Source: an uncultured bacterium (GTDB taxonomy: Bacteria; Elusimicrobiota; Elusimicrobia; Elusimicrobiales; Elusimicrobiaceae). Taken from it: DNA of 64,000 nt. Shown piece after piece: positions 1,469-40,776 of this stretch. The number at the start of each line of letters is the position of its first letter. Position 1 is the first letter of the stretch. Below the pieces are notes generated by a model, which was not told the DNA's origin, searched no databases, and saw only the letters and a list, made by a program, of their open reading frames with translations. Where the stretch lies: NCBI GenBank assembly GCA_949297775.1, contig CASFTM010000005.1, positions 26,605-90,604 on the forward strand. The letters run 5' to 3'. The position numbers and the translations under genes were made by a program.

Positions 1469-1996
1469 TTACAAACCCGACTTGCACAATTGGGTCCCCA
1501 AATCCGTTTTCCCCGTACAAGTAGTCTTGCCGGGATAAGAAGATTGATCCAGCCACACCGTATAGGAAAAATCAGCTTTTTCCAAACACGCTCCAAAGCT
1601 CAGTGTTTTGGCAAATGTCGGGCAATATAGCACACTCAAATATGCACTGCCCGGGGAAGCAGTATTATTTACACCTAGTAAAGGGTCCAACTGAAAGTCG
1701 TCGTCACAGACAAGCAAATCCCCCTGCAAAACAGAACAACTGGGGAATGCAATATCCATTTGCTGGATATCAACCGTATATTCCCCATTTGCCATATAAT
1801 AGGCTTCTTCCGCCGCCTTAAATTGCGCCGCAATTTGGCGCATATTGGCAAAGCGGGATTTTAATACCGCCAGTTGGTATTGCGGCAAAGCAATAGCCGC
1901 CAGGATACCAATGATTAAAACGACCACTAATAGTTCTATTAGCGTAAATCCGGCGTTTTCCCCCGCCGGGAAGGATTTTTGATAAATTTTGCTCAT
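1469..1996 (-). CDS. Type IV pilin-like (PilE-like) protein, palindrome class, copy 1
   Basis: Class III signal ENAG|[25 protein letters not shown]-terminal Cys pair; start placed at the ATG inside the inverted repeat. Confidence 0.9.
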   Translation of the reverse strand: MSKIYQKSFPAGENAGFTLIELLVVVLIIGILAAIALPQYQLAVLKSRFANMRQIAAQFKAAEEAYYMANGEYTVDIQQMDIAFPSCSVLQGDLLVCDDDFQLDPLLGVNNTASPGSAYLSVLYCPTFAKTLSFGACLEKADFSYTVWLDQSSYPGKTTCTGKTDLGTQLCKSGL

Positions 1997-2030
1997 AGCC
2001 AAAATTTATCAAAAAAAAAAAACAAATCAA
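1976..2030 (-). promoter_or_regulatory. Pilin start-site element copy 1: 16-bp IR, T12 tract, -35 TTGATT / -10 TAAATT
   Basis: Arms 1976-1991 and 2000-2015, spacer CTCATAGC, A12 at 2011-2022 on + strand; repeated at 4 other loci. Confidence 0.8.
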
Positions 2031-2188
2031 GGGGCGGGGCGCCCCTCCCCTCTTTTTACCCGTCAACGCGATTAGTTTAGGCCACACTGTTTGGGCACTG
2101 TCGCGCCCTTGCGTAACGGCCCAGAGGCTGGGCTCCCCACTCTATACCCGTTAGCGCGCTTAGCCTAGGCCACGCTGTTCCCGCACTG
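2031..2188. repeat. Pilin-upstream mosaic repeat (hairpin modules plus two 44-bp units)
   Basis: Segments shared with 14310-14379, 21379-21422 and 37508-37577. Confidence 0.75.
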
Positions 2189-2346
2189 CCGCTCTCCTAC
2201 GAAACAGCCCCAAACAGGGCCCCTGCCTACACCGCTCACACAACTGGCGGAACCGTACACTTATCCACAAACTGCGTAGTGCCCCATATAAAATGCCGCG
2301 GGGGCCTAGAGGCCCCGCAGACAAATGGTTATTGATAGCGTTTTGC

Positions 2347-5017: not shown

Positions 5018-5539
5018 TTAGGAGTCTAAATTCATAGACTTACACAAATAATTGCCTAAATCGGTATAACCGGTGCATTCCTCTACATTGGGATAAGAAG
5101 AATGTTGCAGCCATAAACTGATGGTGGCATCGCATCCAGAAAAAAGGTTGCCTCCTATCCCGCGGGAATGATAAAAAATTCTTACGCGGTTGGCCCCGGC
5201 CACCGCATTGGGGCCGGTAATATTTGCCACATAAGCAAAAGGGCAATCCAACCGATGATCTGCTGAATCCAGTTCGCACACTTGGGTATAGTCTACATCC
5301 AAATCTTCCACCGGGATTGAATATTTTCCATTTGCCAAGTAATACATTTCCTGCGCCCGGCGAATACCCTGCGCCATTTGGTAATAATTCATTAGCCTCG
5401 TTTTCTGCACGGCGCGTTGGTATTGAGGAAGCGCTACCGCCGACAAAATACCAATGATTAAAACAACTACTAACAATTCTATTAGCGTAAATCCGGCGTT
5501 TTTCTTAGCCGGGAAGGGTTTTTGATAAATTTTGGTCAT
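5018..5539 (-). CDS. Type IV pilin-like protein, palindrome class, copy 2
   Basis: KNAG|[24 protein letters not shown]; C-terminal CTGYTDLGNYLC. Confidence 0.9.
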   Translation of the reverse strand: MTKIYQKPFPAKKNAGFTLIELLVVVLIIGILSAVALPQYQRAVQKTRLMNYYQMAQGIRRAQEMYYLANGKYSIPVEDLDVDYTQVCELDSADHRLDCPFAYVANITGPNAVAGANRVRIFYHSRGIGGNLFSGCDATISLWLQHSSYPNVEECTGYTDLGNYLCKSMNLDS

Positions 5540-5573
5540 AGCCAAAATTTATCAAAAAAAAAAAACGAGTCAA
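5519..5573 (-). promoter_or_regulatory. Pilin start-site element copy 2 (-35 TTGACT, T12, -10 TAAATT, IR)
   Basis: Arms 5519-5534 and 5543-5558, spacer GTCATAGC, A12 at 5554-5565. Confidence 0.8.
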
Positions 5574-9378: not shown

Positions 9379-10444
9379 TTACTTTAAACAGGCAAACATC
9401 GCCGTCCTTTACAATATAGTCTTTCCCTTCGGAACGGATTAAACCGTGCTCACGCAGGGCTTTTTCGCTGCCGTATTTGGCGAAATCGTCAAATGTGTAT
9501 ACATCGGCGCGGATGAAACCTTTTTCAAAATCGCTGTGGATTTTGCCCGCCGCCTGCGGGGCCGTACAGCCCACCGGGATCAGCCAGCTGCGCACTTCCA
9601 CTTCTTCGCCGGCGGTAAAATAGGTGCACAGGTTTAATAACTTCATTCCTTCGCGCACGATTTTTTCAAGCCCGGTGTAGTCGTTGCCGGTTTCCGCCAG
9701 GAAAGCTTTCTTTTCCTCTTCGGAAAATTCGGCAATGTCGGCTTCAAACTTCACGCACAGTTCCACAAAACCCGCGCCGTTTTCTTTGGCGTACTTTGCC
9801 ACTTTTTCGGCGTTTTCCACGTTGCGCTTTTCGGAATTGTTACCCACATACAGCACGGGTTTGGCGGTAAGAAATTGATAATCTTTTAAATCTTCCGGTT
9901 CCAGCCCCAGCGAACTGACGGGTTTGCCGTTTTCCAGCGCGGCTTTGATTTCTTTCATCCGTTCCCAGGCGGCTACGGCATCCTTCTTGCCGCTTTTGGC
10001 GTTGGAGCCCAGGCGGTCGCATACTTTGGTGGCGGTTTCCAGGTCGGCCAGCATCAGTTCGGTATTGATGATTTCAATATCGCGCAAAGGATCTACGGAG
10101 TTCATCACGTGTGTCACGTTATCATCATCAAACAGACGCACCACGTGGATAATCGCGTCCACTTCGCGGATATTGGCTAAAAATTTGTTCCCCAATCCTT
10201 CGCCTTGGCTCGCGCCTTTGACGATGCCGGCGATATCCACAAATTTGATAAACGCGGCGGTTTTCTTGGGCGGTTTGAACATTTCAAACAGTTTATCCAG
10301 CCGCTTGTCCGGTATCGGCACAATGCCGACGTTGGGTTCAATGGTGCAGAAAGGATAGTTGCTTGCTTCCGCACCCGCGCAGGTAAGGGCGTTAAAAAGG
10401 GTGGATTTGCCTACGTTAGGCAAGCCGACAATACCAATTTCCAT
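9371..10444 (-). CDS. ychF: Ribosome-binding ATPase YchF
   Basis: GIVGLPNVGKST, NYPFCTIEPN, GEGLGNKFL, YIVKDGD. Confidence 0.97.
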   Translation of the reverse strand: MEIGIVGLPNVGKSTLFNALTCAGAEASNYPFCTIEPNVGIVPIPDKRLDKLFEMFKPPKKTAAFIKFVDIAGIVKGASQGEGLGNKFLANIREVDAIIHVVRLFDDDNVTHVMNSVDPLRDIEIINTELMLADLETATKVCDRLGSNAKSGKKDAVAAWERMKEIKAALENGKPVSSLGLEPEDLKDYQFLTAKPVLYVGNNSEKRNVENAEKVAKYAKENGAGFVELCVKFEADIAEFSEEEKKAFLAETGNDYTGLEKIVREGMKLLNLCTYFTAGEEVEVRSWLIPVGCTAPQAAGKIHSDFEKGFIRADVYTFDDFAKYGSEKALREHGLIRSEGKDYIVKDGDVCLFKVNA

Positions 10445-10628
10445 AGATAAAACTCCTTAGGACTGATGATAAAACGGAATAATTACTTATATTTTACCAT
10501 TTTGCGTCGTTCCCCGGCACGCCGCACAAAGAAGACTTTCTCTTTTTCTCCCAAACTAACCATTTTTTCCCTCTATCCGGGGGCGCAAATAAAACTTATA
10601 ATAGGGCATCACACAAGGAGAACCCCCA

Positions 10629-13607
10629 ATGAAAAAACAACCCTTTTTAATATGCTGCCTGTTAGCCTTGGCCCTGCCCGTTTTGGCGTGCCCGGATAAC
10701 GACAGCAACAACATACTGACGTATGACGACCAAACGGTGGCCGGGTTGGAAGAAATCGTTGCCGGGCACGGCCAGCAAAACGCCGACGGCAACTCGGTCA
10801 TCATTACAAACAGCACCATTCAAGACAACGGCAGCCCGCTGCGCAATTCCCAGGTGGTCGGCGGCTGGGCGGTGGAAGAAACGGCCAACCAAAACCGTGT
10901 TGAAATTACCGATTCCACCGTTAACCGCAACATTGTGGGCGGTCAATCCACCTTCGGCACGCAGGCCAACGGCAACGTGGTCAGCATTACGCAATCCAAA
11001 GTAAACGAAGGCGCCGCCCTGCAGGATATGACCACTCTTTCGGCATATCAAGCCGAGCACCGCTACGATGCCATGGGAAACGACACTTATGTCCTTTCCA
11101 GTATGGCATCCGATTCGGTACAAACCGCGGGAAATATCACTCCGGAGTCTTCTCTCTACACCACCTACGGAGGTATGGTAGCTAACGGCGAAGCCTGCGG
11201 CAACCAAATTATTGTTACAGGCGATGGCAGCGTGATAGGCAACAACTTAATGGCGGCCTATTCCCCTTATTTGGAAGAAACCCACCTGCACGACAATTCC
11301 GTTACGGTAACCAATGCCCAAGTAACAGGTTTAATTACAGGCGCCGGCAGTTTGGGGGCCAATTGGAATACCACCATACAAGACCCGCTGACCGTCAACA
11401 ATAATTCGGTGACAATTACCGCTTCCCAAATTAACGACGCTATCGGCGCGTACGGCGGCTTAACCACCAACGGAAACCGCATTACGCTCGTAAATTCTTC
11501 AGCAGACAACTTATACGGCGTTTCCTTTGGGCAGGACATTTTCTACTCCGGTTCCCAACCCGCCACCATTGAAAACACCGCCAACAATAACAGCGTTCTC
11601 CTTTATAGCAATTCCTCCGCCACGGGCAATATCTACGGCGCCCAAAGCCACAGCGTGCAAGCCTACGGCAACCAAGTGGTGTTAGCCGGCGGTTCCTCCG
11701 CCCAAGGCGATATTTATGGGGCGCATGTTTCCAACGCCCGCGTGCAAACCAGCGATACTACCACAGATTGGAACACCGTGCAGACCGCGGCGGAAAACAA
11801 TACGCTTTCTCTCTCCGGGTCCACCGCCGGGAACGCTTCGGCCCATATAGCCGCCGCCAAAAACTTCAGCGGCTGGGCGAACAATAATACCGTAGACATT
11901 ACGGATTCCACCGTCAGCGCCGCCATTTTGGCGGGCGGCTGGGCCGAACACGAACGCCAAACGCTGACCACCAAAGGCCAGCAGAATTTTTCCATCGGCT
12001 ACCAAGCCGACGGCAACACCGTTTCCGCTGTCGGAAGCCAGTTTTCCGTCACTGTTTACGGCGGGTTCGTATCCACCAAAGACGATATCAATCCGGACGC
12101 CCTAACCGATGACACGCCTTCCTCCGCTTCGTCCAACCTGGTTCACTTAGACTCTTCCACCTTAACCGGCAACGTGTACGGCGGCGCCGCACAAGGGGAT
12201 TACACCGCGGCGAATAACAACCGCGTATGGTTAACAGACGCACAAGTAACAGGGAGTGTATATGGGGCGTTGGCGGAAGGGACCACTTCGTCCGCCGCAC
12301 AAAACGAAGTGATTTTGCAAAACAGCACCGTCACAGGGGACGTATACGCCGCGTCCGCCGCGCAAAGCGGCAGCAACACCGTCACGCTTTCGGGCCAAAG
12401 CCGTGTGGACGGCACGGTATATGGCGGCAACGGCGGGAACAACCAGCTGACACTGCTGAATTTCCAAAGCGACCAAGCGTTAAATGTAAGCGGGTTTGAC
12501 AAGCCATATATCATCTCCGGGGCGGATACGTCCGTGATTTTCGCCCAGGACGTAGCCCAAGGGGAAGTGTACGTGCAGGGCGTGGACGCCGTGGACGGCC
12601 GCGTGATTATCCAAACGCCGGACGAAAATTCCAGCTTTACCCTGCACGCCGCCGACTCCGGCGTGTATACCTATTCGCTGACGCCGCAGGCCCAGTCCAG
12701 CGGGCTTACCGGCTGGCTGCTGGCGGGCGGATTTTCCAGTGCGCGGGCCAAAACATACGCCCAAACAAGTATGGCCGCCTTGGCGTTGGCCAACGCCGGG
12801 GATAATTTACTGACCGATGCCGTCAGCGCCGCCTGGCAGAGCGACCAGGAAACCGGCTCTTTCCTGCAAAGCGGCTACGAAGAAACCCGCCACGAAACAG
12901 GCAGCGGCGTACACTTAAACGCCACCACCGTGCTAGGCGGCCTGTACGCCAAAACCGGCGACTGGCTGGGCGGTTTTTACGCCCGCTATGCTTATGGGGA
13001 CTATCACACCTACCCGGTACGGGCGGAAAGTTATGCTTCTTCCTGGGCGGGCGGCGTATTCGGCGCGTGGAACGGGGTGGAAAATCTCCGGCTGGGGGCC
13101 GATGCGCGCCTCGGCTGGCAAAGCACCAGCTACGGCGGATCGGAAGAAACAGGGGCGTCGTTTGATTACGAAAGCGTATTTACCTCGCTGCAAGCGTCGG
13201 CCCAATATGGATTTTGGCAGGATATGCAAGCCGAAGCCCGCCTGCGCTGGACACACATCCAAGGGGACAGCTTGACCGACAATTTAGGCGAAGCCGTTTC
13301 CCTGCACGCCAGCGACAGTTTGCTGAGCACCGTGGGCGTCACGTATGCGCCCCGCGCCCTGGCGTTTAACTATTTTACGCCGGAAGTGAAGGTGCAATGG
13401 CTGCACGAATTTAACGGGAAAGGCTCCGCCGATGTAGAAGGGCACCGCATAGACGGGCTTTCCCTGCGCGGCAGCACCGGGCGGGTAAGTTTGGGGCTTA
13501 ACTATCAACGCCCCGAACAAGGATTATTGGCGCGGCTGGCCGGCTTTGTGCAAGGCGGCCAGATGGACGGCTGGGGGCTGAAATTGGACGCCGCTCTGCG
13601 CTTTTAG
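10629..13607 (+). CDS. Autotransporter-like outer-membrane protein with beta-helical passenger
   Basis: Signal peptide, N/S/T/G-rich repeats (GNIYGA...ANNNxV), about 280-aa amphipathic beta C-terminus ending in Phe. Confidence 0.8.
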   Translation: MKKQPFLICCLLALALPVLACPDNDSNNILTYDDQTVAGLEEIVAGHGQQNADGNSVIITNSTIQDNGSPLRNSQVVGGWAVEETANQNRVEITDSTVNRNIVGGQSTFGTQANGNVVSITQSKVNEGAALQDMTTLSAYQAEHRYDAMGNDTYVLSSMASDSVQTAGNITPESSLYTTYGGMVANGEACGNQIIVTGDGSVIGNNLMAAYSPYLEETHLHDNSVTVTNAQVTGLITGAGSLGANWNTTIQDPLTVNNNSVTITASQINDAIGAYGGLTTNGNRITLVNSSADNLYGVSFGQDIFYSGSQPATIENTANNNSVLLYSNSSATGNIYGAQSHSVQAYGNQVVLAGGSSAQGDIYGAHVSNARVQTSDTTTDWNTVQTAAENNTLSLSGSTAGNASAHIAAAKNFSGWANNNTVDITDSTVSAAILAGGWAEHERQTLTTKGQQNFSIGYQADGNTVSAVGSQFSVTVYGGFVSTKDDINPDALTDDTPSSASSNLVHLDSSTLTGNVYGGAAQGDYTAANNNRVWLTDAQVTGSVYGALAEGTTSSAAQNEVILQNSTVTGDVYAASAAQSGSNTVTLSGQSRVDGTVYGGNGGNNQLTLLNFQSDQALNVSGFDKPYIISGADTSVIFAQDVAQGEVYVQGVDAVDGRVIIQTPDENSSFTLHAADSGVYTYSLTPQAQSSGLTGWLLAGGFSSARAKTYAQTSMAALALANAGDNLLTDAVSAAWQSDQETGSFLQSGYEETRHETGSGVHLNATTVLGGLYAKTGDWLGGFYARYAYGDYHTYPVRAESYASSWAGGVFGAWNGVENLRLGADARLGWQSTSYGGSEETGASFDYESVFTSLQASAQYGFWQDMQAEARLRWTHIQGDSLTDNLGEAVSLHASDSLLSTVGVTYAPRALAFNYFTPEVKVQWLHEFNGKGSADVEGHRIDGLSLRGSTGRVSLGLNYQRPEQGLLARLAGFVQGGQMDGWGLKLDAALRF

Positions 13608-13678
13608 CGGATTTTCCCCCTAACCAAACGGCCCGCCAACCGGCGGGCCGTGGCTTGTTCAACACGTAAAGTATCCTT

Positions 13679-14173
13679 TTATTTGATGCCATACCAATAG
13701 CCGGACGCTTTTACTCCGGCTAATGCGGCACATTTTTTCGCGCCATTCCAGTTATACCCGAAACACACTACATCTGTTTGCCTTTTTTCTATTTTTAAAT
13801 AATACAGATGATCTCTTCTCACTGCAAACCCGACACCGGCCTCGCCCCCCTGTTTCAAGCGATAACTAAAATCCTTTGTCTGTTTAGCCCGATAGCCGTC
13901 CACTTCAATCTCTTCCCCGGGAACGGTAATATCCAGCTCGTCTATATTAGAAGCATAAACACCATTCGCCAAGTAATAGGATTCCTGGGCCTGCATAATT
14001 TTGCGCAACATGGCTACCGCTTCCAATCCGCGGGCTTTGTCTACCGCCCGCTGGTACTGCGGCAACGCCACCGCCGCCAAAATACCAATAATTAAAACGA
14101 CTACTAACAGCTCTATTAGCGTGAAACCGGCGTTTTTCCCCGCCGGGTAGGATTTTTGATAAATTTTGCTCAT
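13679..14173 (-). CDS. Type IV pilin-like protein, palindrome class, copy 3
   Basis: KNAG|[24 protein letters not shown]; divergent C-terminal domain with Cys pair. Confidence 0.9.
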
Positions 14174-14207
14174 ACGCAAAATTTATCAAAAAAAAAAAAC
14201 AAATCAA
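14153..14207 (-). promoter_or_regulatory. Pilin start-site element copy 3
   Basis: Arms 14153-14168 and 14177-14192, spacer CTCATACG, A12 at 14188-14199, TTGATT at 14202-14207. Confidence 0.8.
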
Positions 14208-14309
14208 CCCCCTTGCCGGGGGCAGGCTTTTTGGCCCCGGCCAAGGGGGTTGCCTAATACGGTACTTACGCTATTAGGGAACAACTGGTTGAGGATGTTC
14301 CTGCAAGGG

Positions 14310-14641
14310 GCCCAGCGCCTGGGCCCCCACTCTAGGCCCACCAACACGACTAATTGGGCCACACTGTTTTGCCGCACTACTAAAAAAGGAAAGCCGTTTC
14401 CGCTTATGTTGTTGTCGTGGTTGTAGCCGTTGCCGTTGCCGTGGTTATGGCCGTTTAACCGGCCCATTTGCCCCGTCTATAAAAAGCCTTCCAAGCGGAA
14501 AAGAAATTTTATTGTTTGAGCGCGGGGCAAAGCCCGCGCGAGTTATAAAATTTCCCGCTGGGAAGTGATTTTTATGGGGCCCTGGGCCGGGGCAGAGCCT
14601 GCCCTCCCATCTTTGGTACTTTTTCCCGCCGGAAAAAGTAC
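14310..14641. repeat. Pilin-upstream mosaic repeat with long hairpin module
   Basis: Homologous to 2119-2188, 37534-37770, 21331-21354 and 21452-21476. Confidence 0.8.
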
Positions 14642-14676
14642 AAATAAATTTATTTCTCTGACAAAAAATACCAACA

Positions 14677-14704
14677 AAAAACCCCGCTTGAAGCGGGGTA
14701 AAAA
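14677..14704 (-). terminator. Terminator downstream of tRNA-Glu
   Basis: ACCCCGC-ttgaa-GCGGGGT flanked by A-runs. Confidence 0.7.
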
Positions 14705-14712
14705 GAGAAATA

Positions 14713-19305: not shown

Positions 19306-19749
19306 TCAATTGGAAAAATCCATCCTATATCTGCCGCCCGATAAATCCATCCCGATATTTAAGCAGGTTTGGCCGTCACCTGTACACTCAATATAATTCA
19401 GATCTCCATTGGAATTATAAGCCTTTAGGGTATAGCTGCCATCCGCGCGGGACGTGGAAACCGTTACCGTATTCCCGGAAAAAGAAACAGTCGGCGTAGT
19501 AAAATAAGCGCTTTTGGTCACATCCCCCACCTGCAACGCGGAAGACCCCGTAATAGAGGACGGGTAGGAATTCCCATTAACCACGTATTGCGCATTGATT
19601 GCGTCGCTGGCGGCGCGCAGATTGGAAATGCCTTCCACGGAGCGGCCGCGCTCCAACGAGGCGTAATACTTCGGGAGAGCCACCGTTACCAATACGCCCA
19701 CTACCACCATGACAATTAACAATTCAATTAATGTAAAACCCTTGTTCAT
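19306..19749 (-). CDS. Type IV pilin-like protein, short-leader class
   Basis: MNKG|FTLIELLIVMVVVGVLVTVALPKY; AGGAGG RBS; no palindrome element. Confidence 0.88.
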   Translation of the reverse strand: MNKGFTLIELLIVMVVVGVLVTVALPKYYASLERGRSVEGISNLRAASDAINAQYVVNGNSYPSSITGSSALQVGDVTKSAYFTTPTVSFSGNTVTVSTSRADGSYTLKAYNSNGDLNYIECTGDGQTCLNIGMDLSGGRYRMDFSN

Positions 19750-21189: not shown

Positions 21190-21269
21190 AGATATCCGGC
21201 GTTTTTCCCCCAGGGAGAAGGTTTTGATACATTTTGTGTATGAGCAAAATCTATCAAAAAACAAATCAA
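21190..21269 (-). pseudogene. Decayed pilin 5' end with degenerate start-site element (spacer inverted, tract of 6)
   Basis: GGAAAAACGCCGGA...CTAATAG remnant of KNAGFTLIE coding DNA; arms 21222-21236 and 21245-21259; rest of gene absent. Confidence 0.75.
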
Positions 21270-21476
21270 GGGGCGGGCCGGCGCTCTTTTTCGCCCTTTT
21301 TCTGGCGGCAGGAAAAGGGCTGTATAATTAGTGATTTTTGTTGCTCCCTGGGGCACCGGGCCGCTGTTCCCCTGCCTTTACCCGTTACCGCGATTCGTGG
21401 AGCCACCTTGCTTCCGCGTTGCCGCACGCTTGTCAGGTTCCCCCTTCTTGGATACTTTTTCCGCCGGAAAAAGTAT
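21270..21476. repeat. Pilin-upstream mosaic repeat, rearranged module order
   Basis: Modules shared with 37771-37819, 37747-37770, 2057-2100 and 14616-14641. Confidence 0.75.
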
Positions 21477-21497
21477 TGTTAAAAGGCATACGCATAA

Positions 21498-21529
21498 AAA
21501 AGGAACGGAATAAAAATTCCGTTCCTTTT
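21498..21529. terminator. Bidirectional intrinsic terminator
   Basis: AAAAGGAACGGAAT...ATTCCGTTCCTTTT. Confidence 0.8.
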
Positions 21530-21551
21530 AAATTTTTACCTTGCGGAAAAT

Positions 21552-21699
21552 TTACTTCACCGCGTTGTAACCAGCTTCCAACGCTTTTTTATTTTTATGG
21601 CATTAAAATCCCCTGGGCTTTCGCTCCAGGGGATAAATCTTCGCCTTCTAACGCACTTACTTCACCGCGTTGTAACCAGCTTCCAACGCTTTTTTATTT
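21552..21699. repeat. 43-bp perfect direct repeat duplicating the 3' end of the oxidoreductase gamma gene
   Basis: 21552-21594 is identical to 21657-21699. Confidence 0.92.
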
Positions 21700-24328: not shown

Positions 24329-24433
24329 AATTCTCCTGTGGGTCCGGGGGTTTTGCCGGAAAAACCCATATATAAAGTATATGTCTTTTGAAAGCCCAAA
24401 CGCAATAATTCTAATCTTTTTATACAATAAAGT

Positions 24434-24904
24434 ATGACTGATATACCTCAAACACCGTTTAATGAAATTTTATTGCCTCAGCTGCGCTCCCTGCTGGAGG
24501 CCGAACGCGACCCAGTGGCCAATATGGCCAATATGGCCGCGCTATTGTACCATTCCTTGCCGGAAATCAATTGGGCCGGATTTTATATTTTAAAAAACAA
24601 TCACTTGGTACTAGGGCCCTTTCAAGGCAAACCCGCCTGCGTGCGCATTCCGCTGGGCAAAGGCGTCTGCGGGACGGCCGCCGCACGCCAGGAAACGCTG
24701 CTGGTGCCCAATGTACACGAATTTACCGGGCATATTGCCTGCGACGGGGCTTCCAACAGCGAAATTGTGGTGCCCATTTTGCATAACGGGCAAACCTGGG
24801 GCGTGTTGGATATAGATTCCCCGGTGTTAAACCGCTTTGCCGAAGAGGACCGCCGCGGATTGGAACAAGCGGTGCATCTCTTTATAAAAGCCAGTGATTT
24901 ATAA
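24434..24904 (+). CDS. GAF-domain protein (free Met-R-sulfoxide reductase MsrC-like)
   Basis: NWAGFY, LGPFQGKPAC, GVCG, HIACD...SEIVVP, LDIDS. Confidence 0.88.
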   Translation: MTDIPQTPFNEILLPQLRSLLEAERDPVANMANMAALLYHSLPEINWAGFYILKNNHLVLGPFQGKPACVRIPLGKGVCGTAAARQETLLVPNVHEFTGHIACDGASNSEIVVPILHNGQTWGVLDIDSPVLNRFAEEDRRGLEQAVHLFIKASDL

Positions 24905-36022: not shown

Positions 36023-36084
36023 AAACGCCTCCAAAAGTATACGACCATTGTATAAAATTTGACTGTTTTTTATACAATGTATAT

Positions 36085-36897
36085 ATGGCAGACACGCAGA
36101 CCGTTATCAGCGACGTAAAATTATTTATTGAACGGCTCAAAAAAGAGCTGCCGGAAGTGTTCGGCAATCCGAGCGCCCCGGCTGATGCGCATACCGCGCC
36201 AAATAGCCCGGCGGACGGCAACAAAGTTCTTTATAACGGGGACCTGTACGAAGCCCGTATGTACGTAACGCCCGACCAGGAAGAAGGCGTGGCGTTTGAC
36301 GGCACTATTTTCCACATTTACCTGCAGTCCAAAAATTCCGACCCGGCGGCGTTGGTAACGGCCTGGCTGAGAAACAAAGCCAACGAAACCTTAAAAGCCA
36401 AAACGAAAGAATGGGCGGAAAAAATCGGCGTGGAATACAATAACATCGTGATTAAGGACCAGCGAACCTGCTGGGCCAGTTGCTCGGGCAAGAAAAACAT
36501 TAACTATTCATACCGCATTGTCAAAATGCCGCTGGCGGTGCAGGACTATTTGATGGTGCACGAACTGTGCCACCTGGTGCATATGAACCACGGGCAGGAA
36601 TACTGGCAATTGGTGGCGCAGTTCTGCCCCGACTATAAAAGCCACCGCCGTTGGCTAAACGAAAATAAAGGCGCGGTATTTGCCGAAGTGGAACTTACCT
36701 ACCGCGAAACGCCCGAAGAAAATACCGACGGGGACACGGCCCACGCAGAGGCGGCCCCGACGCAAGAAATGTCCGCCCCGGAAACAACCGCGGCAAAAGC
36801 CGCTCCCGCGGAGGCGGAAGAGCGAGAAGTACCACAAGAGCAAGCCCCTCGGAATGCGACTTCCACCGGCGAAAACAAGCCAACGGAAAACGACTGA
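36085..36897 (+). CDS. M48/YgjP-like (DUF45) metallohydrolase with acidic tail
   Basis: WASCS, DYLMVHELCHLVHMNHG. Confidence 0.82.
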   Translation: MADTQTVISDVKLFIERLKKELPEVFGNPSAPADAHTAPNSPADGNKVLYNGDLYEARMYVTPDQEEGVAFDGTIFHIYLQSKNSDPAALVTAWLRNKANETLKAKTKEWAEKIGVEYNNIVIKDQRTCWASCSGKKNINYSYRIVKMPLAVQDYLMVHELCHLVHMNHGQEYWQLVAQFCPDYKSHRRWLNENKGAVFAEVELTYRETPEENTDGDTAHAEAAPTQEMSAPETTAAKAAPAEAEEREVPQEQAPRNATSTGENKPTEND

Positions 36898-36957: not shown

Positions 36958-37473
36958 CTAAAAATGAAGCGCTTTGCACAACCGGCGGCCGCGGTCGGTT
37001 GTGGCATCGCAAGTGATTGCGTTTGGATTGGAAGAATTGGCAAAAAATACATGCGCGGTAGCAATACGGGAGGAAGAACAAGTTCCGTCACCGGGGCAAT
37101 AAATGGCCCGCACCTGGTGCTGTGCTAAAGCGGGTTGTATTGACCCGTGGATATTATCCAGCTGTCCGTTTTCGCAGCGTATTTGGCTGGAATCATTGGC
37201 AAGAAGTTGACACGCCGAAGAATAATCCACATCCAAGTCCGCAAGCTTGATTGTATACGATCCGTTTGCCATATAATAAACTTCCTGCGCTTTGCGGATA
37301 TCCGACGCCATTTGGATGAGCGTCATCATACGAGATTTGTCCACCGCCAGTTGGTATTGCGGAAGCGCCACCGCCGACAAAATACCAATGATTAAAACAA
37401 CCACTAACAGCTCTATTAACGTAAATCCGGCGTTTTTCCCCGCCGGGAAGGATTTTTGATAAATTTTGGTCAT
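36958..37473 (-). CDS. Type IV pilin-like protein, palindrome class, copy 4
   Basis: KNAG|[24 protein letters not shown]; C-terminal CDATTDRGRRLC. Confidence 0.9.
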   Translation of the reverse strand: MTKIYQKSFPAGKNAGFTLIELLVVVLIIGILSAVALPQYQLAVDKSRMMTLIQMASDIRKAQEVYYMANGSYTIKLADLDVDYSSACQLLANDSSQIRCENGQLDNIHGSIQPALAQHQVRAIYCPGDGTCSSSRIATAHVFFANSSNPNAITCDATTDRGRRLCKALHF

Positions 37474-37507
37474 AGCCAAAATTTATCAAAAAAAAAAAAC
37501 AAATCAA
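37453..37507 (-). promoter_or_regulatory. Pilin start-site element copy 4
   Basis: Arms 37453-37468 and 37477-37492, spacer GTCATAGC, A12 at 37488-37499. Confidence 0.8.
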
Positions 37508-37819
37508 GGGGCGAGCCGCCCCTCCCCTCTTTTTACCCGTCAACACGATTAGCTTAGGCCACACTGCTCCTGCAATGTTGCACTGTTTCAAAAAGGAAGT
37601 TTTTCCGCTTGTATTTATGTCGTAGCCGTGGTTGTTGCCGTTTATCCGCCCCTTTAGAGCCGTCTACAAAAAGCCTTTCAAACGGATTAGAAATTTTATT
37701 GTTTGAGCGCGGGGACCGCGTGAGTTATAAAATTTCCCGTTTGAAAGTGATTTTTGTGGCTCCCTGGGGCGGCGCTCTTTTTCGCCCTTTTTCTGGCGTC
37801 AGAAAAAGGGCTATATAAT
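37508..37819. repeat. Pilin-upstream mosaic repeat (most complete copy)
   Basis: Contains modules also seen at about 2.0, 14.3-14.6 and 21.3 kb. Confidence 0.8.
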
Positions 37820-37955
37820 GAAGCTGTGCCCTTACGCAACAGCCCCGAGCCGGGGCTCCCCCTGGGCCGCCAACAATAAATAAAACCGCCGGGTGCGAAT
37901 GCCGGCGGTTTATAGGAGACCCCCTCGTCCCTGGCTTTAGGAAGAGGAAGCAAAT

Positions 37956-38726
37956 TTATTTGGCGGCTAATAAATTATCGTGTATACCAGTGTGGAAAAC
38001 AGCCAGATGCTCTTCCGACACGCCGCCCCAAAAGGACACCGGCAACCGCCGGGGAACCTCATTCACCAAAGCAACCGCTTTCCCTTGGTAAAAGAAAGGC
38101 TCCCCTTTTTGGAGCGTATTTTTTACGCCCGCCAGCCGGCTGGCACGCGGCGAAACAACCCCCCGATTTACAAAAAATTCCAATAATTTTTGCTGTACGC
38201 CTTTTCCAAAAACCTCATAAAGCGTTTCTCCTTCCGGCACAGCCGCCACCGGCACACCTTGTAACCCTTCCGTCAACCGGGAAGAAACAGCCACTCCGGC
38301 AAAATTTCCATTTATGCTTACGCTTCCCGCCGGGCCGCTCCCGCGGCGGCCATTGGCTAATTGTACACGTACTTTTTTTAAGGAAAATCCACTCGGTGCC
38401 TGGGCACACGAAGCCGTGGTAAGGATGCGGTTTTCCCCCGCCAACAATACCCCGCGGCAGGCCGTCGTTTGGCGCTCCGTTTTAACCAACACATCCCTGA
38501 ATCCGGGCCGGCGGGGCCGGCGGACGGTATCGCTTAAATAAACCGGTTTTTCCCATTCAAATACAAGCGTTGCCACCGCTTGTTCCTGGCGGTGCAGTTT
38601 TTCCGCCTCTACAGCCTGCCGGGTAAGCGCCGGCAGCATGCCGGCAGATTCCTGGGCAGATACATTTCCAGCGGCGCAAAGGGCAACGGTTGCGAACAAC
38701 ATTTTAATATACTGATTCCTTTTCAT
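37956..38726 (-). CDS. Secreted hypothetical protein, possible degenerate trypsin-like fold
   Basis: Signal peptide; CRGVLL...ILTTASC and GEPFFYQGKAV resemble trypsin motifs lacking the catalytic His and Ser. Confidence 0.6.
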   Translation of the reverse strand: MKRNQYIKMLFATVALCAAGNVSAQESAGMLPALTRQAVEAEKLHRQEQAVATLVFEWEKPVYLSDTVRRPRRPGFRDVLVKTERQTTACRGVLLAGENRILTTASCAQAPSGFSLKKVRVQLANGRRGSGPAGSVSINGNFAGVAVSSRLTEGLQGVPVAAVPEGETLYEVFGKGVQQKLLEFFVNRGVVSPRASRLAGVKNTLQKGEPFFYQGKAVALVNEVPRRLPVSFWGGVSEEHLAVFHTGIHDNLLAAK

Positions 38727-39971: not shown

Positions 39972-40199
39972 CTAAAATAAATCACGCTCTTTTACGCCCA
40001 GCCCTTTTGCTATTTTGCGTATGTTAAGCAACGCCAAATTGCGTTCCCCACGCTCTACTCCTCCCATATACGTCCGGTCCAGCCCGATTTCCAAGGCAAA
40101 ATCCTCCTGGGAAAACCCCGCCTGCCGGCGCAGTGCCCGCACTCGCGCGCCAAACGCCTTTAAATACTTTTTGTCCGCCTGCGAATAATTGTTTTTCAT
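39972..40199 (-). CDS. XRE-family HTH protein resembling R-M controller (C) proteins
   Basis: FGARVRALR...SQEDFA...[18 protein letters not shown] pattern; 75 aa. Confidence 0.85.
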
Positions 40200-40222
40200 A
40201 CTTCAAGGATAGCTGTATGATA

Positions 40223-40247
40223 TCTATAAGTACACGGACTATAAGTA
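40223..40247 (-). promoter_or_regulatory. C-box-type double operator
   Basis: Minus strand TACTTATAGTCC-GTG-TACTTATAGA matches the GACT-TAT-AGTC/GTG C-box architecture, just upstream of the HTH gene. Confidence 0.75.
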
Positions 40248-40293
40248 TCTTTTTTTTGTTATAATAAAGCTACATTTAATATGCGGAGGTTTT

Positions 40294-40776
40294 ATGCAAA
40301 AAGGTTTTACGCTGATAGAATTATTAGTGGTTGTGCTGATTATCGGCATATTGGCGGCGGTCGCTCTGCCGCAGTATCAGCTGGCGGTGGACAAAAGCCG
40401 CCTGGCGGGAGCAATTTCGTTGGCGCAGTCTTTGCGCAAAGCGCAGGAAATTTATTATATGTCCAATAACGCTTACAGTGTGGATTTGGAAAATTTTGAT
40501 ATTGATTTATCTAAATCCTGCCGCCGTTCCGCCCCGGGAATGATTAATTGCCACCACTATATTGTTGACAACATCTACGGCGACCTAAATACTTCCGAAG
40601 AAGTCAACCAAGTGGCTATTTTCTATGTGCCTTCCAACCCCGGACAGACCGCCCAAAAAGACGCCCTTATCCATGTGTATCTGGAACATTCTTCCCTCCC
40701 CAACGAAATTACCTGCGAGGGCTTTACCGACCGCGGCAAAAAATTGTGCCGTGCTTCGGGCTATACAGTCATTTAA
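40294..40776 (+). CDS. Type IV pilin-like protein, short-leader class
   Basis: MQKG|[24 protein letters not shown]; GGAGG RBS; C-terminal CEGFTDRGKKLC. Confidence 0.9.
   Translation: MQKGFTLIELLVVVLIIGILAAVALPQYQLAVDKSRLAGAISLAQSLRKAQEIYYMSNNAYSVDLENFDIDLSKSCRRSAPGMINCHHYIVDNIYGDLNTSEEVNQVAIFYVPSNPGQTAQKDALIHVYLEHSSLPNEITCEGFTDRGKKLCRASGYTVI

What the first reader, a model, noticed from the sequence alone, without database searches (positions are those of the whole stretch)
1976..2030. Perfect 16-bp palindrome centred on the start codon of four dispersed pilin genes (loxP/FRT-like geometry)
Seen: TTTTTGATAAATTTTG-N8-CAAAATTTATCAAAAA occurs at 1976-2015, 5519-5558, 14153-14192 and 37453-37492. 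The pilin ATG lies inside the asymmetric 8-bp spacer. One arm is non-coding and the other encodes K-I-Y-Q-K, yet both are invariant while neighbouring codons vary. The spacer-edge bases covary (G..C in copies 2 and 4, C..G in copy 3). At copy 2 this element is the only part conserved, with pcrA ending 75 bp upstream. Known: long arms around an 8-bp directional spacer is the geometry of tyrosine-recombinase sites such as loxP and FRT; dimeric repressors also bind palindromes. Inferred: a pilin-specific switch. It could be a recombination site, a shared operator, a cruciform that removes the -10, or a hairpin that hides the AUG in read-through mRNA from pcrA or tRNA-Glu.
Basis: partly seen in the sequence, partly recalled or inferred. 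Interest (0 to 1): 0.92.

Follow-up and report, generated by a model that had tools for sequence, protein, structure and literature searches.

The report
Promoter palindrome of leaderless pilin genes
The 40-bp palindrome is real, but it is a conserved promoter element of a large pilin gene family in gut Elusimicrobia, not a loxP-like recombination site; in this lineage the start codon has moved to the transcription start at its centre, so half of a probable regulator-binding site is translated as K-I-Y-Q-K.

Summary
TTTTTGATAAATTTTG-N8-CAAAATTTATCAAAAA occurs exactly four times (0 expected by chance), each time on the ATG of a minus-strand prepilin gene. A fifth, decayed copy lies at 21221-21260.

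The upstream arm is the core promoter. A -35 TTG hexamer, a 16-bp spacer ending in T12 and an extended -10 (TGaTAAATT) put the A of ATG at +1. There is no Shine-Dalgarno sequence, so these are predicted leaderless mRNAs. The dyad spans about -19 to +21.

In more distant Elusimicrobiales the same palindrome lies wholly upstream of an SD and a later ATG (leader MKN..GRLGG). The downstream arm is therefore a nucleotide-level element. The ATG in the spacer is derived, through ATA to ATG, and transitional forms exist.

The motif is specific to pilin genes. In a metagenome scan keyed on the promoter arm alone, 49 of 51 assessable Elusimicrobia-type promoters kept the other arm.

Symmetry is actively kept: some changes are compensated in both arms, and KIYQK codons are about 6 times less variable at synonymous sites than control codons.

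Best guess is an operator for a symmetric regulator of the pilin family (about 0.4). Rivals are a cruciform switch, a self-homogenising palindrome and a mirror promoter. A recombinase site is not supported.

The parts
1976..2015 (-). Palindrome copy 1. The promoter-side arm is 2000-2015, the spacer is 1992-1999 (GCTATGAG on the gene strand) and the coding-side arm is 1976-1991 (codons K3-K7).
   Evidence: single-strand DNA hairpin -13.3 kcal/mol, z -5.8
2025..2030 (-). -35 hexamer TTGATT of the pil1 promoter.
   Evidence: Read. TTG lies 16 bp from the -10 in 24 of 37 unique related sites.
2011..2022 (-). T12 tract filling the -35/-10 spacer. Its last five T are the outer end of the promoter-side arm.
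   Evidence: Tract length is 9-13 in relatives and compensates for the length of the -35-proximal segment.
2003..2011 (-). Extended -10, TGaTAAATT (hexamer at 2003-2008). Six bases then separate it from the ATG, so the A of ATG (1996) is the predicted +1.
   Evidence: The promoter scan calls the same arrangement at copy 2 (TTGACT-16-TAAATT, TG present).
1469..1996 (-). pil1, a prepilin of 175 aa ([16 protein letters not shown]|FTLIELL...). No SD is present, so the mRNA is predicted to be leaderless.
1950..1969 (-). Second conserved hairpin, CCGGCG-N8-CGCCGG, in the leader-coding mRNA (+28 to +47). It follows 27 unstructured nucleotides.
   Evidence: The stem is kept with changed bases in L010 and L088.
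2029..2047 (.). GC-rich hairpin directly upstream of the -35. It is terminator-like on both strands and probably acts as an insulator.
   Evidence: Hairpins of different sequence sit at the same place in copies 3 and 4 and in L003, L005 and L010.
5519..5558 (-). Palindrome copy 2 (spacer GCTATGAC). The -10 is at 5546-5551, the -35 TTGACT at 5568-5573 and the ATG at 5537-5539.
5018..5539 (-). pil2, a prepilin of 173 aa, 75 nt downstream of pcrA. The locus is syntenic with L001-L004.
14153..14192 (-). Palindrome copy 3 (spacer CGTATGAG). The ATG is at 14171-14173 and the -35 at 14202-14207.
13679..14173 (-). pil3, a prepilin of 164 aa.
37453..37492 (-). Palindrome copy 4 (spacer GCTATGAC). The ATG is at 37471-37473 and the -35 at 37502-37507.
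36958..37473 (-). pil4, a prepilin of 171 aa.
21221..21260 (-). Decayed fifth copy with 3 arm mismatches, T6 instead of T12, and the pilin gene truncated after the leader. Its 8-bp spacer (21237-21244) is inverted relative to its own flanks.
   Evidence: On the gene strand the spacer is CTCATACA; its reverse complement matches copy 3 at 7 of 8 positions against 3 of 8 directly. It is fixed in the source population (one contig, 0 differences).

Best explanation
The element is the core promoter plus the first 21 transcribed bases of a multigene pilin family in gut Elusimicrobiaceae.

Step 1 is read from sequence and comparison, with about 0.85 confidence. The upstream arm together with the T-tract is a sigma-70-type promoter. 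It consists of a -35 TTGnnn hexamer, a 16-bp spacer ending in T12 and an extended -10, TGaTAAATT.

Step 2 is inferred, with about 0.7 confidence. Transcription starts at the A of the ATG, 7 nt after the -10. These four genes therefore make leaderless mRNAs, and the dyad runs from about -19 to +21, centred on +1/+2.

Step 3 is shown by comparison. The downstream arm is conserved as DNA and not as protein. In relatives it is untranslated 5' leader followed by an SD and a later ATG. In this lineage an ATA-to-ATG change in the spacer moved the start codon to +1, so the arm is now read as K-I-Y-Q-K in a signal leader that prepilin peptidase removes.

Step 4 is inferred, with about 0.4 confidence. 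The two arms are half-sites of an operator for an unidentified symmetric (dimeric or tetrameric) DNA-binding regulator. A protein bound from -19 to +21 would block RNA polymerase. The most likely role is therefore a repressor that switches the whole dispersed pilin family together.
For: Promoter:
- The TTG hexamer lies 16 bp from TAAATT in 24 of 37 unique sites. T-tract length (9-13) compensates for the length of the adjacent segment.
- The TG extension is present throughout, and the scan tool calls TTGACT-16-TAAATT at copy 2.

Leaderless mRNA:
- No SD-like sequence precedes any of the four genes, whereas 28 of 48 other window genes and both short-leader pilins have one.
- The -10 to ATG distance is fixed at 6 nt.
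- The first 27 nt of the predicted mRNA are unstructured.
- Two other window genes show TATACAAT-N5/6-ATG.

Nucleotide-level constraint on the downstream arm:
- Codons 3-7 deviate from the modal codon in 4 of 73 cases. The 16 invariant mature residues deviate in 81 of 240 (Fisher p = 3e-7).
- The arms are nearly invariant over about 70-190 times single-copy depth in community contigs, while the leader codons beside them vary.
- The same arm is non-coding in L009, L012, L021, L031, L033 and about 35 metagenome loci.
- Transitional genes have the old ATG mutated to ATA and a new in-frame ATG in the spacer (L114, L133, L149, L198).

Regulon-like distribution:
- All five window copies, and 49 of the 51 assessable Elusimicrobia-type promoters found with the promoter arm alone, carry the second arm and precede pilin genes.
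- Short-leader pilins with ordinary promoters lack it.

Precedent: palindromic repressor sites at promoters of a regulon in a bacterium rich in leaderless mRNAs, namely RDRM/DdrO in Deinococcus (PMC5552922, PMC6868357, PMC4007540).
Against: - No start of transcription was measured. Only assembled contigs of public runs were available, and two contigs of a metatranscriptome run cross the whole palindrome and 70-85 nt upstream. That means either read-through RNA or contaminating DNA.
- No binding protein is identified. The only HTH gene seen in the window (39972-40199) has no link to the motif.
- Arm spacing varies between 7, 8 and 9 bp, and 7 and 8 occur on one contig (L143). This is awkward for a rigid dimer.
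- Some sites on one contig differ by compensated changes in both arms: GATAAA/TTTATC against GCTAAA/TTTAGC in L031, and G-C against A-T at position 16 in L143. The covariation score exceeds the shuffled and slid controls. This is expected for base pairing or for palindrome self-correction, not for a plain operator.
- Forty base pairs is long for a single dimer.
Confidence: 0.4

Rival explanations
1. DNA structural switch. Under negative supercoiling the AT-rich dyad extrudes as a cruciform and takes the -10 and +1 into hairpin stems. Promoter activity then depends on superhelical tension, including the tension left behind by each departing polymerase.
For: - The arms are perfect 16-17 bp, and the single-strand hairpin is -13 to -15 kcal/mol with z of -5.8 to -7.7.
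- In relatives the symmetry often runs almost through the centre, as in GCTTATAAGC, GCGTATACGC and GTT-TAT-AAC.
- Both-arm compensated changes occur at positions 7, 10, 16, 17 and 18, and the covariation score is 0.081 against 0.055 +/- 0.006 in shuffles.
- Loop length is free to vary (7-9).
- The inverted spacer of the decayed copy shows that the arms have paired at least once in evolution.
Against: - In close relatives the arms drift without compensation (L001, L003, L005).
- About 10 single-arm changes stand against 5-6 compensated ones.
- Natural promoters controlled by cruciforms are, to my knowledge, essentially unproven in vivo.
- The exact sequence, and not only the pairing, is conserved.
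- Central bases that would lie in the loop are often symmetric too, which pairing does not explain.
Confidence: 0.2
2. Self-perpetuating palindrome. Only the promoter arm is selected. The downstream arm is kept as its mirror image by quasipalindrome template switching during replication and by gene conversion among paralogues, and has little or no function of its own.
For: - Template-switch correction of imperfect inverted repeats is an established mutational class (PMC7202029, PMC6357072).
- It would produce exactly the both-arm changes seen, as well as the spacer inversion of the decayed copy.
- Modules are near-identical within a genome while the rest of each gene diverges.
- Intact-looking genes that have lost the arm exist (L107, a 10-nt deletion; L207 site at 16850).
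Against: The arm is retained in 49 of 51 assessable promoters across lineages whose pilins are only 40-50% identical. It also survives inside coding sequence against synonymous drift. That is hard to maintain without selection, given that palindromes are deletion-prone.
Confidence: 0.12
3. Mirror promoter. The downstream arm is a second extended -10 (TGaTAAATT) on the other strand, facing the first. Polymerase bound there competes with the pilin promoter, or makes a short antisense RNA that ends at the GC hairpin.
For: - Read on the other strand, the arm is an identical TGnTAAATT with its own predicted +1 one base from the sense +1.
- Polymerase can engage symmetric promoters in either orientation, and one binding event excludes the other (PMC12825309).
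- The GC hairpin upstream of the -35 is terminator-like on the + strand as well.
- In the decayed copy the flipped ATG sits at the mirror +1 and opens an 80-codon ORF (21240-21482).
Against: There is no -35-like TTG and no long T-tract on the mirror side, either in this window or in the SD-type relatives. The geometry differs from described bidirectional promoters, which share one -10 between divergent starts about 18 bp apart (PMC12825309). No antisense RNA evidence was obtainable.
Confidence: 0.1
4. RNA hairpin. In transcripts that begin upstream, by read-through or from a second promoter, the two arms pair and hide the AUG or change mRNA stability.
For: The RNA hairpin is stable: the 91-nt upstream-extended RNA folds at -28.5 kcal/mol, z -3.8. 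Metatranscriptome contigs cross the whole dyad. Several arm mismatches are G-U type on the sense strand.
Against: - The conserved -35/-10 geometry puts the main start inside the spacer, so the upstream arm is not transcribed.
- A terminator-like hairpin precedes the promoter in this clade.
- An internal AUG without an SD would be poorly used anyway.
- Mismatches of the A-C type, which pair only on the antisense strand, are about as frequent as G-U types. There is therefore no strand bias.
Confidence: 0.06
5. Site-specific recombination site, or programmed spacer flip. A tyrosine recombinase (loxP/FRT-like) or another invertase acts on the dyad to rearrange pilin genes, or to invert the 8-bp spacer and turn the start codon off.
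For: The 16-8-16 geometry fits. One copy (21221-21260) does have its spacer, and only its spacer, inverted.
Against: - Three different spacers occur among four copies, and spacer length of 7-9 occurs in one genome.
- The pcrA-pilin-gatCA order is conserved between species.
- No recombinase domain was found in 40 window ORFs.
- No flipped spacer reaches 2% of contig depth in four metagenomes.
- The one flipped copy is a fixed, decayed pseudogene.
- An 8-bp segment between 16-bp arms is too short for a synaptic inversion.
Confidence: 0.03

Closest known systems
Palindromic repressor operators on core promoters of regulons with leaderless mRNAs, e.g. RDRM bound by the XRE-family dimer DdrO in Deinococcus (PMC5552922, PMC6868357, PMC4007540)
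   Same: A conserved palindrome is shared by many dispersed genes at or near their promoters, in an organism that uses leaderless mRNAs. A dimeric repressor would explain both the symmetry and the family-wide distribution.
   Different: RDRM is 17 bp and sits at variable positions. This element is 40 bp and sits at one fixed position, centred on +1. No binding protein is known, arm spacing varies by 1 bp, and both-arm compensated changes occur.
loxP / FRT core sites of tyrosine recombinases (13-bp arms and an 8-bp asymmetric spacer; own knowledge)
   Same: Inverted arms flank an 8-bp asymmetric spacer, and there are several copies per genome.
   Different: Spacers are not identical between copies and vary in length. 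No recombinase gene is nearby, and no rearrangement appears between species at the orthologous locus. The site coincides with a promoter and a start codon.
Bidirectional (pseudo-symmetric) bacterial promoters (Warman et al. 2021, cited in PMC12825309)
   Same: Promoter symmetry allows polymerase to bind in either orientation, and one binding excludes the other.
   Different: Those promoters share a single -10 between divergent starts about 18 bp apart. Here two separate -10-like elements face each other, with coincident predicted starts at the dyad centre.
Quasipalindrome template-switch hotspots (PMC7202029, PMC6357072)
   Same: Inverted repeats correct themselves toward perfect symmetry, and loop inversion is a possible outcome. 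This accounts for the both-arm changes and the flipped spacer.
   Different: That is a mutational process and not a function. Here the palindrome is retained at one gene class over long divergence.
Phase-variable promoters with a homopolymer tract between -35 and -10 (e.g. Neisseria porA and opc, Mycoplasma vlp; own knowledge)
   Same: A T9-T13 run fills the -35/-10 spacer of surface-protein genes. Near-identical promoters differ only in run length.
   Different: No within-population length heterogeneity could be shown. +1 and -1 variants make up only about 2% of pooled contig depth.
H-NS high-affinity motif tCGATAAATT (Lang et al. 2007; recalled from memory, a lead only)
   Same: The arm TTGATAAATT matches 9 of 10 positions. 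The module is an AT-rich island of about 50 bp in a genome of 51% G+C.
   Different: H-NS is proteobacterial. No analogue was looked for or found here, and the resemblance may simply reflect similarity to a -10.

Membership tests
Tyrosine-recombinase core site (loxP/FRT type) | Two inverted arms around a 6-8 bp asymmetric spacer | tested here: met
   16+8+16 in four copies
Tyrosine-recombinase core site (loxP/FRT type) | Partner sites share an identical spacer of fixed length | tested here: not met
   The spacers are GCTATGAG, GCTATGAC (twice) and CGTATGAG. Lengths of 7, 8 and 9 occur in relatives, and 7 and 8 occur on one contig.
Tyrosine-recombinase core site (loxP/FRT type) | A cognate recombinase is encoded nearby or co-distributed | tested here: inconclusive
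   No integrase or recombinase domain in the 40 window ORFs scanned. The rest of the genome was not available.
Tyrosine-recombinase core site (loxP/FRT type) | Rearrangements with breakpoints at the site | tested here: not met
   The pcrA-pilin-gatC-gatA order is kept in L001-L004. No flipped or joined forms reach 2% in contigs of four runs. Raw reads were not available.
Sigma-70-type promoter with extended -10 | -35 TTGnnn, a 16-18 bp spacer and TGnTAnnnT, conserved in position among homologues | tested here: met
   Spacing is 16 in 24 of 37 sites, and T-tract length compensates.
Leaderless mRNA | The -10 lies about 6-7 nt upstream of the start codon and there is no SD | tested here: met
   TAAATT-N6-ATG in all four copies, with no SD-like motif.
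Leaderless mRNA | The mapped 5' end of the transcript lies at the start codon | not testable with these tools
   Only assembled contigs of public runs were held. RNA-run contigs cross the site, which is ambiguous.
Operator of a dimeric transcription factor | A dyad-symmetric site shared by the promoters of a gene set | tested here: met
Operator of a dimeric transcription factor | Fixed half-site spacing | tested here: inconclusive
   Mostly 8 bp, but a large 7-bp family and one 9-bp site exist.
Operator of a dimeric transcription factor | A specific binding protein | not testable with these tools
   No candidate could be linked to the motif. The XRE HTH gene at 39972-40199 is only a neighbour of a pilin gene without the palindrome.
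Bidirectional promoter (shared -10) | One pseudo-symmetric -10 lies between divergent starts about 10-23 bp apart | tested here: not met
   There are two -10-like hexamers 20 bp apart that face inward, with coincident predicted starts (definition from PMC12825309).
Structured RNA or DNA hairpin under selection for pairing | Compensatory changes that keep the pairs | tested here: inconclusive
   5 of 18 pairs show both-side changes, and the score is above shuffled and slid controls. Uncompensated changes are more numerous, however, and most sequences were selected by one arm.
Rfam RNA families | A match to a curated model | tested here: not met
   Only two tRNAs reach the gathering threshold in the window.
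Slipped-strand phase-variable promoter | A homopolymer tract of 9 or more in the -35/-10 spacer | tested here: met
   T12 in all four copies and T9-T13 in relatives.
Slipped-strand phase-variable promoter | Length heterogeneity within one population at one locus | not testable with these tools
   Contigs drop rare variants. Pooled +1 and -1 variants are about 2% each.

The most novel reading that the evidence does not exclude
The dyad works through its own base pairing. It would be a promoter that senses supercoiling by extruding as a cruciform. Alternatively, its 8-bp centre would invert by template switching or short-patch conversion from an oppositely oriented copy. Such an inversion moves the leaderless ATG to the other strand and switches that pilin gene off, as has happened at 21221-21260. 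Together with slippage of the T12 tract, this would give each of the many pilin genes its own stochastic on/off switch.
Probability: 0.12. Interest if true: 0.8.

Novelty: new variant of a known kind. Interest (0 to 1): 0.45.

Why it matters
Gut Elusimicrobia are almost unstudied and carry very large families of pilin-like genes. This gives a defined, testable cis element for that family, of about 60 bp: a -35, a T-tract, an extended -10 and a dyad centred on +1.

It also shows an unusual evolutionary event. A start codon was captured at the transcription start, which turned an SD-led gene into a leaderless one and forced a regulatory half-site to be translated. The event is tolerated because the prepilin leader is cleaved off.

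The finding is a caution for annotation as well. The conserved 'KIYQK' leader is a DNA signal and not a peptide motif. If the symmetry turns out to work through DNA structure or spacer inversion, it would be a new kind of phase switch.

Tried and rejected
1. Recombination site: rejected on spacer heterogeneity, conserved synteny and the absence of a recombinase.
2. Mapping the transcription start and testing phase variation with public reads: every run that holds this DNA is kept only as assembled contigs. These break at the repeat and drop rare variants. The single metatranscriptome run gave two low-depth contigs that cross the site. This is inconclusive.
3. Rfam: nothing apart from tRNAs.
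4. Literature: no paper on an Elusimicrobia pilin promoter or palindrome was found.
5. Intrinsic terminator: rejected. The T-run lies 5' of the hairpin and the A-run 3' of it on both strands, which is the wrong polarity.
6. Peptide-level conservation of KIYQK: rejected, because the same DNA is untranslated in most lineages.
7. Strand bias of wobble mismatches as a test for an RNA hairpin: no bias was found.
8. A regulator or recombinase among the neighbours: only housekeeping genes and one XRE HTH gene that is not linked to the motif.
Only about 35 Elusimicrobia loci were usable.
10. The L012 lineage with altered arms was followed through its relative L207. There the downstream arm is partly or largely lost, so it gave no clean covariation series.
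Full report
**Observation**

The pattern TTTTTGATAAATTTTG-N8-CAAAATTTATCAAAAA is present exactly at 1976, 5519, 14153 and 37453, and none was found in 100 dinucleotide-preserving shuffles. A fifth copy with three arm mismatches lies at 21221-21260.

The genes are on the minus strand. Read on that strand, each site is ...TTGATT TG T12 GATAAATTTTG GCT ATG AGC AAA ATT TAT CAA AAA... It opens a prepilin ORF of the form M[ST]KIYQK(S/P)(F/Y)PA(G/K)(K/E)NAG|[16 protein letters not shown]. The dyad centre lies between the A and the T of the ATG.

A six-frame scan for the prepilin cleavage motif finds six pilin genes in the window. Four have the long leader and the palindrome. Two (40294-40776 +, 19306-19749 -) have short leaders (MQKG, MNKG), a GGAGG ribosome site, a TATAAT-type -10 and no palindrome. 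Arm-only searches give no other good match. Within the window, the motif is therefore confined to one class of pilin gene.

**Organism and family**

The pilins belong to Elusimicrobia, and named relatives are Elusimicrobium/Elusimicrobiaceae MAGs. The DNA is found in chicken-gut metagenomes.

Among the 120 best homologues, most carry M[STN]KIYQK followed by a variable leader, and others have short leaders. The window is otherwise housekeeping: pcrA, gatCA, ychF, the glycine cleavage genes, mreBC, PBP2/RodA, RNase G and ribosomal proteins. The 40 ORFs scanned contain no recombinase.

**The upstream arm is the promoter**

The sequence reads as a -35 (TTGATT or TTGACT), a 16-bp spacer that ends in T12, and an extended -10, TGaTAAATT. 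The scan tool calls this at copy 2.

Across 37 unique related sites the TTG hexamer lies 16 bp from TAAATT in 24, and 14, 15 or 17 bp in another 10. Families with a longer segment after the -35 have a shorter T-run: TTGCCTAATG+T10, TTGACATCG+T11 and TTGACTCG+T12. That compensation is what a real -35/-10 pair predicts.

The -10 is followed by six bases and then ATG, so the A is the expected +1.

- None of the four genes has an SD-like sequence, while 28 of 48 other genes and both short-leader pilins do.
- The first 27 nt of the predicted mRNA are unstructured.
- Two other genes in the window show TATACAAT-N5/6-ATG.

I therefore read these as leaderless mRNAs. This is an inference from geometry, and no 5' end was measured.

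**The downstream arm is a DNA element and not a peptide**

In the orthologous pcrA-pilin locus of related species the module is kept, with single-arm drift (L001-L006, L010).

In more distant Elusimicrobiales the same dyad lies wholly upstream of the coding sequence. The layout is T-run, GATAAATTTTG, N7-8, CAAAATTTATCAAAAA(A), GGAG, about 6 nt, then ATG AAA AAC... (leader MKNxxxGRLGG). This is seen in L009, L012, L021, L031 (twice) and L033.

A metagenome scan keyed only on the promoter arm (T9GATAAATTTTG) returned 120 loci.

- About 54 have the Elusimicrobia-type -35.
- Of the 51 that can be assessed, 49 carry the downstream arm with at most 2 mismatches at offset 7-8.
- All of these precede pilin-type starts.
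- The remaining hits are unrelated AT-rich DNA without the arm.
- The two exceptions are a 10-nt deletion (L107) and a degenerate copy (L099).

Spacers of the SD-type genes read cgTATAgg, while those with the start in the spacer read cgTATGag. In L114, L133, L149 and L198 the old start is ATA and a new in-frame ATG sits in the spacer, giving the leader MSKIYQKKNRSIKNRVKGRLGG.

The arrangement in the window is therefore derived. One transition at +3 created a start codon at the transcription start, the SD decayed, and the arm became codons 3-7.

Within coding sequence the arm still behaves as a nucleotide signal.

- In 15 distinct genes, codons 3-7 depart from the modal codon 4 times in 73. The 16 invariant mature residues depart 81 times in 240 (p = 3e-7).
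- In community contigs the arms are almost invariant over 70-190 times single-copy depth, while the adjacent leader codons vary.

**Is the symmetry itself maintained?**

Largely yes. On 36 distinct sites, 92% of cells are standard pairs. Five of 18 pairs show changes on both sides:

- position 7, A-T to C-G, twice;
- position 10, A-T to G-C;
- position 16, G-C to A-T, twice;
- positions 17 and 18, several pair types.

The covariation score is 0.081, against 0.055 +/- 0.006 in shuffles (0 of 500) and 0.02-0.06 for slid partners. Single contigs hold both variants (L031, L143). L033 has lost one base from each arm symmetrically.

Against this, uncompensated changes are more frequent, especially in close relatives. 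Most sequences were selected by one arm. Mismatches show no strand bias. Arm spacing is 7, 8 or 9 bp.

These data fit selection for pairing. They fit equally well the known tendency of quasipalindromes to correct themselves by template switching (PMC7202029). They do not sit easily with a rigid dimeric operator alone.

**Mechanism**

What is solid is that the dyad spans about -19 to +21 of a strong promoter that is specific to one pilin class.

My preferred reading, at about 0.4, is an operator for a symmetric regulator. Such a protein would occlude polymerase and co-regulate the dispersed family, as in the RDRM/DdrO regulon of Deinococcus, an organism rich in leaderless mRNAs (PMC5552922, PMC4007540).

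The rivals are as follows.

- A supercoil-driven cruciform over the -10 and +1 (0.2).
- A self-homogenising palindrome whose downstream arm has little function (0.12).
- A mirror extended -10 that competes for polymerase or makes an antisense RNA (0.1). The geometry differs from described bidirectional promoters (PMC12825309).
- An RNA hairpin in read-through transcripts (0.06).
- A recombination or flip site (0.03).

A terminator reading is excluded by polarity, because the T-run lies 5' and the A-run 3' on both strands.

**The fifth copy**

At 21221-21260 the flanks are in normal order: the GC hairpin, TTGATTTG and a T6 run on one side, and the leader remnant CTTCTCCCTGGGGGAAAAACGCCGGAT on the other. 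The 8-bp spacer, however, is inverted. CTCATACA on the gene strand has a reverse complement that matches copy 3 at 7 of 8 positions, against 3 of 8 directly.

The gene is truncated, and the site is fixed in the source population. This shows that the arms have interacted at least once, by template switching or by short-patch conversion from an oppositely oriented copy. It is evidence of a mutational event and not of a programmed switch. No flipped spacer reaches 2% of depth in four metagenomes.

**Comparison and novelty**

The components are known kinds: an extended -10 promoter, a leaderless mRNA and a promoter-overlapping dyad. The combination appears undescribed. I found no literature on it and no Rfam match.

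The combination has three features:

- a 40-bp dyad centred exactly on +1 and shared by a very large pilin family;
- a start codon captured at its centre;
- a half-site translated into a cleaved leader.

I rate it a new variant of a known kind and of moderate interest. The interest would be high only if the symmetry proves to act through DNA structure or spacer inversion.

Noticed in passing
window 2011-2022, 5554-5565, 14188-14199, 37488-37499; loci L121/L168, L114/L198, L105/L124/L144: A T12 homopolymer fills the -35/-10 spacer of every palindrome-type pilin promoter. Near-identical promoters from different samples differ mainly in run length (T12 vs T10, T12 vs T9), which changes the spacing from 16 bp to 13-15 bp. 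This is the classic layout of slipped-strand phase variation.
   Followed up: partly
window 21221-21260 (spacer 21237-21244); ORF 21240-21482 +: A decayed pilin start has an 8-bp spacer inverted relative to its flanks. The ATG now faces the other way, at the mirror +1, and opens an 80-codon ORF. The site is fixed in the source metagenome.
   Followed up: yes
window 1950-1969, 5493-5512, 14127-14146, 37427-37446 (minus strand): A second conserved inverted repeat, CCGGCG-N8-CGCCGG, lies in the leader-coding mRNA just before the cleavage-site Gly codon (+28 to +47). The stem is kept with changed bases in relatives (UCGGCA/UGCCGG in L010, CUGGCGG/CCGCCGG in L088).
   Followed up: partly
window 2029-2047, about 14208-14250, about 37508-37525; L003 about 9950-9975: GC-rich hairpins of unrelated sequence abut the -35 of each promoter. 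In L003/L004 the -35 hexamer itself forms the 3' half of the stem. They look like terminators or insulators placed against the promoter.
   Followed up: partly
window 21270-21330, 37740-37790, 14530-14570: A short hairpin repeat (CCCTTTTTC-TGnCGCCA-GAAAAAGGG type) shows 20-150 times single-copy depth in metagenome contigs. It is a REP-like high-copy element upstream of several pilin genes.
   Followed up: no
window 2048-2346, 14200-14700, 37525-37960, 21265-21660: About 300-500 bp of shared sequence lies upstream of pil1, pil3, pil4 and the decayed copy. Copy 2 lacks it. Contigs of the RNA run X21 map to 14429-14642. Small ORFs here (14204-14467, 37696-37953) have no Pfam match.
   Followed up: no
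L207:10030-10140, L208:10040-10150; many proteins (e.g. P0028, P0102, P0195): A repeated element of about 100 nt with an internal inverted repeat (GTCATTCCCGA...TCGGGAATC) is inserted between the start and the mature pilin coding region of many Elusimicrobia pilin genes. It is read in various frames as a 40-130 aa 'leader'.
   Followed up: no
window 39972-40199 (-) and intergenic 40200-40293: A 75-aa XRE-family HTH gene is divergent from the short-leader pilin gene. The 94-bp intergenic region holds a direct repeat, CTATAAGTA, twice. This is a possible local regulator, unrelated to the palindrome.
   Followed up: no
window 36065-36087 and 24414-24436: TATACAAT-N6-ATG and TATACAAT-N5-ATG occur without an SD, in front of a YgjP-like gene and a GAF-domain gene. 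These are further candidate leaderless genes in this genome.
   Followed up: partly
window 10445-14712 vs L001:4802-5116: The segment that holds a 992-aa ORF without a Pfam match (10629-13607) and pil3 is absent from the syntenic locus of a related species. There, tRNA-Glu alone lies between DUF1646 and ychF. This is an indel next to the 3' end of the tRNA.
   Followed up: partly
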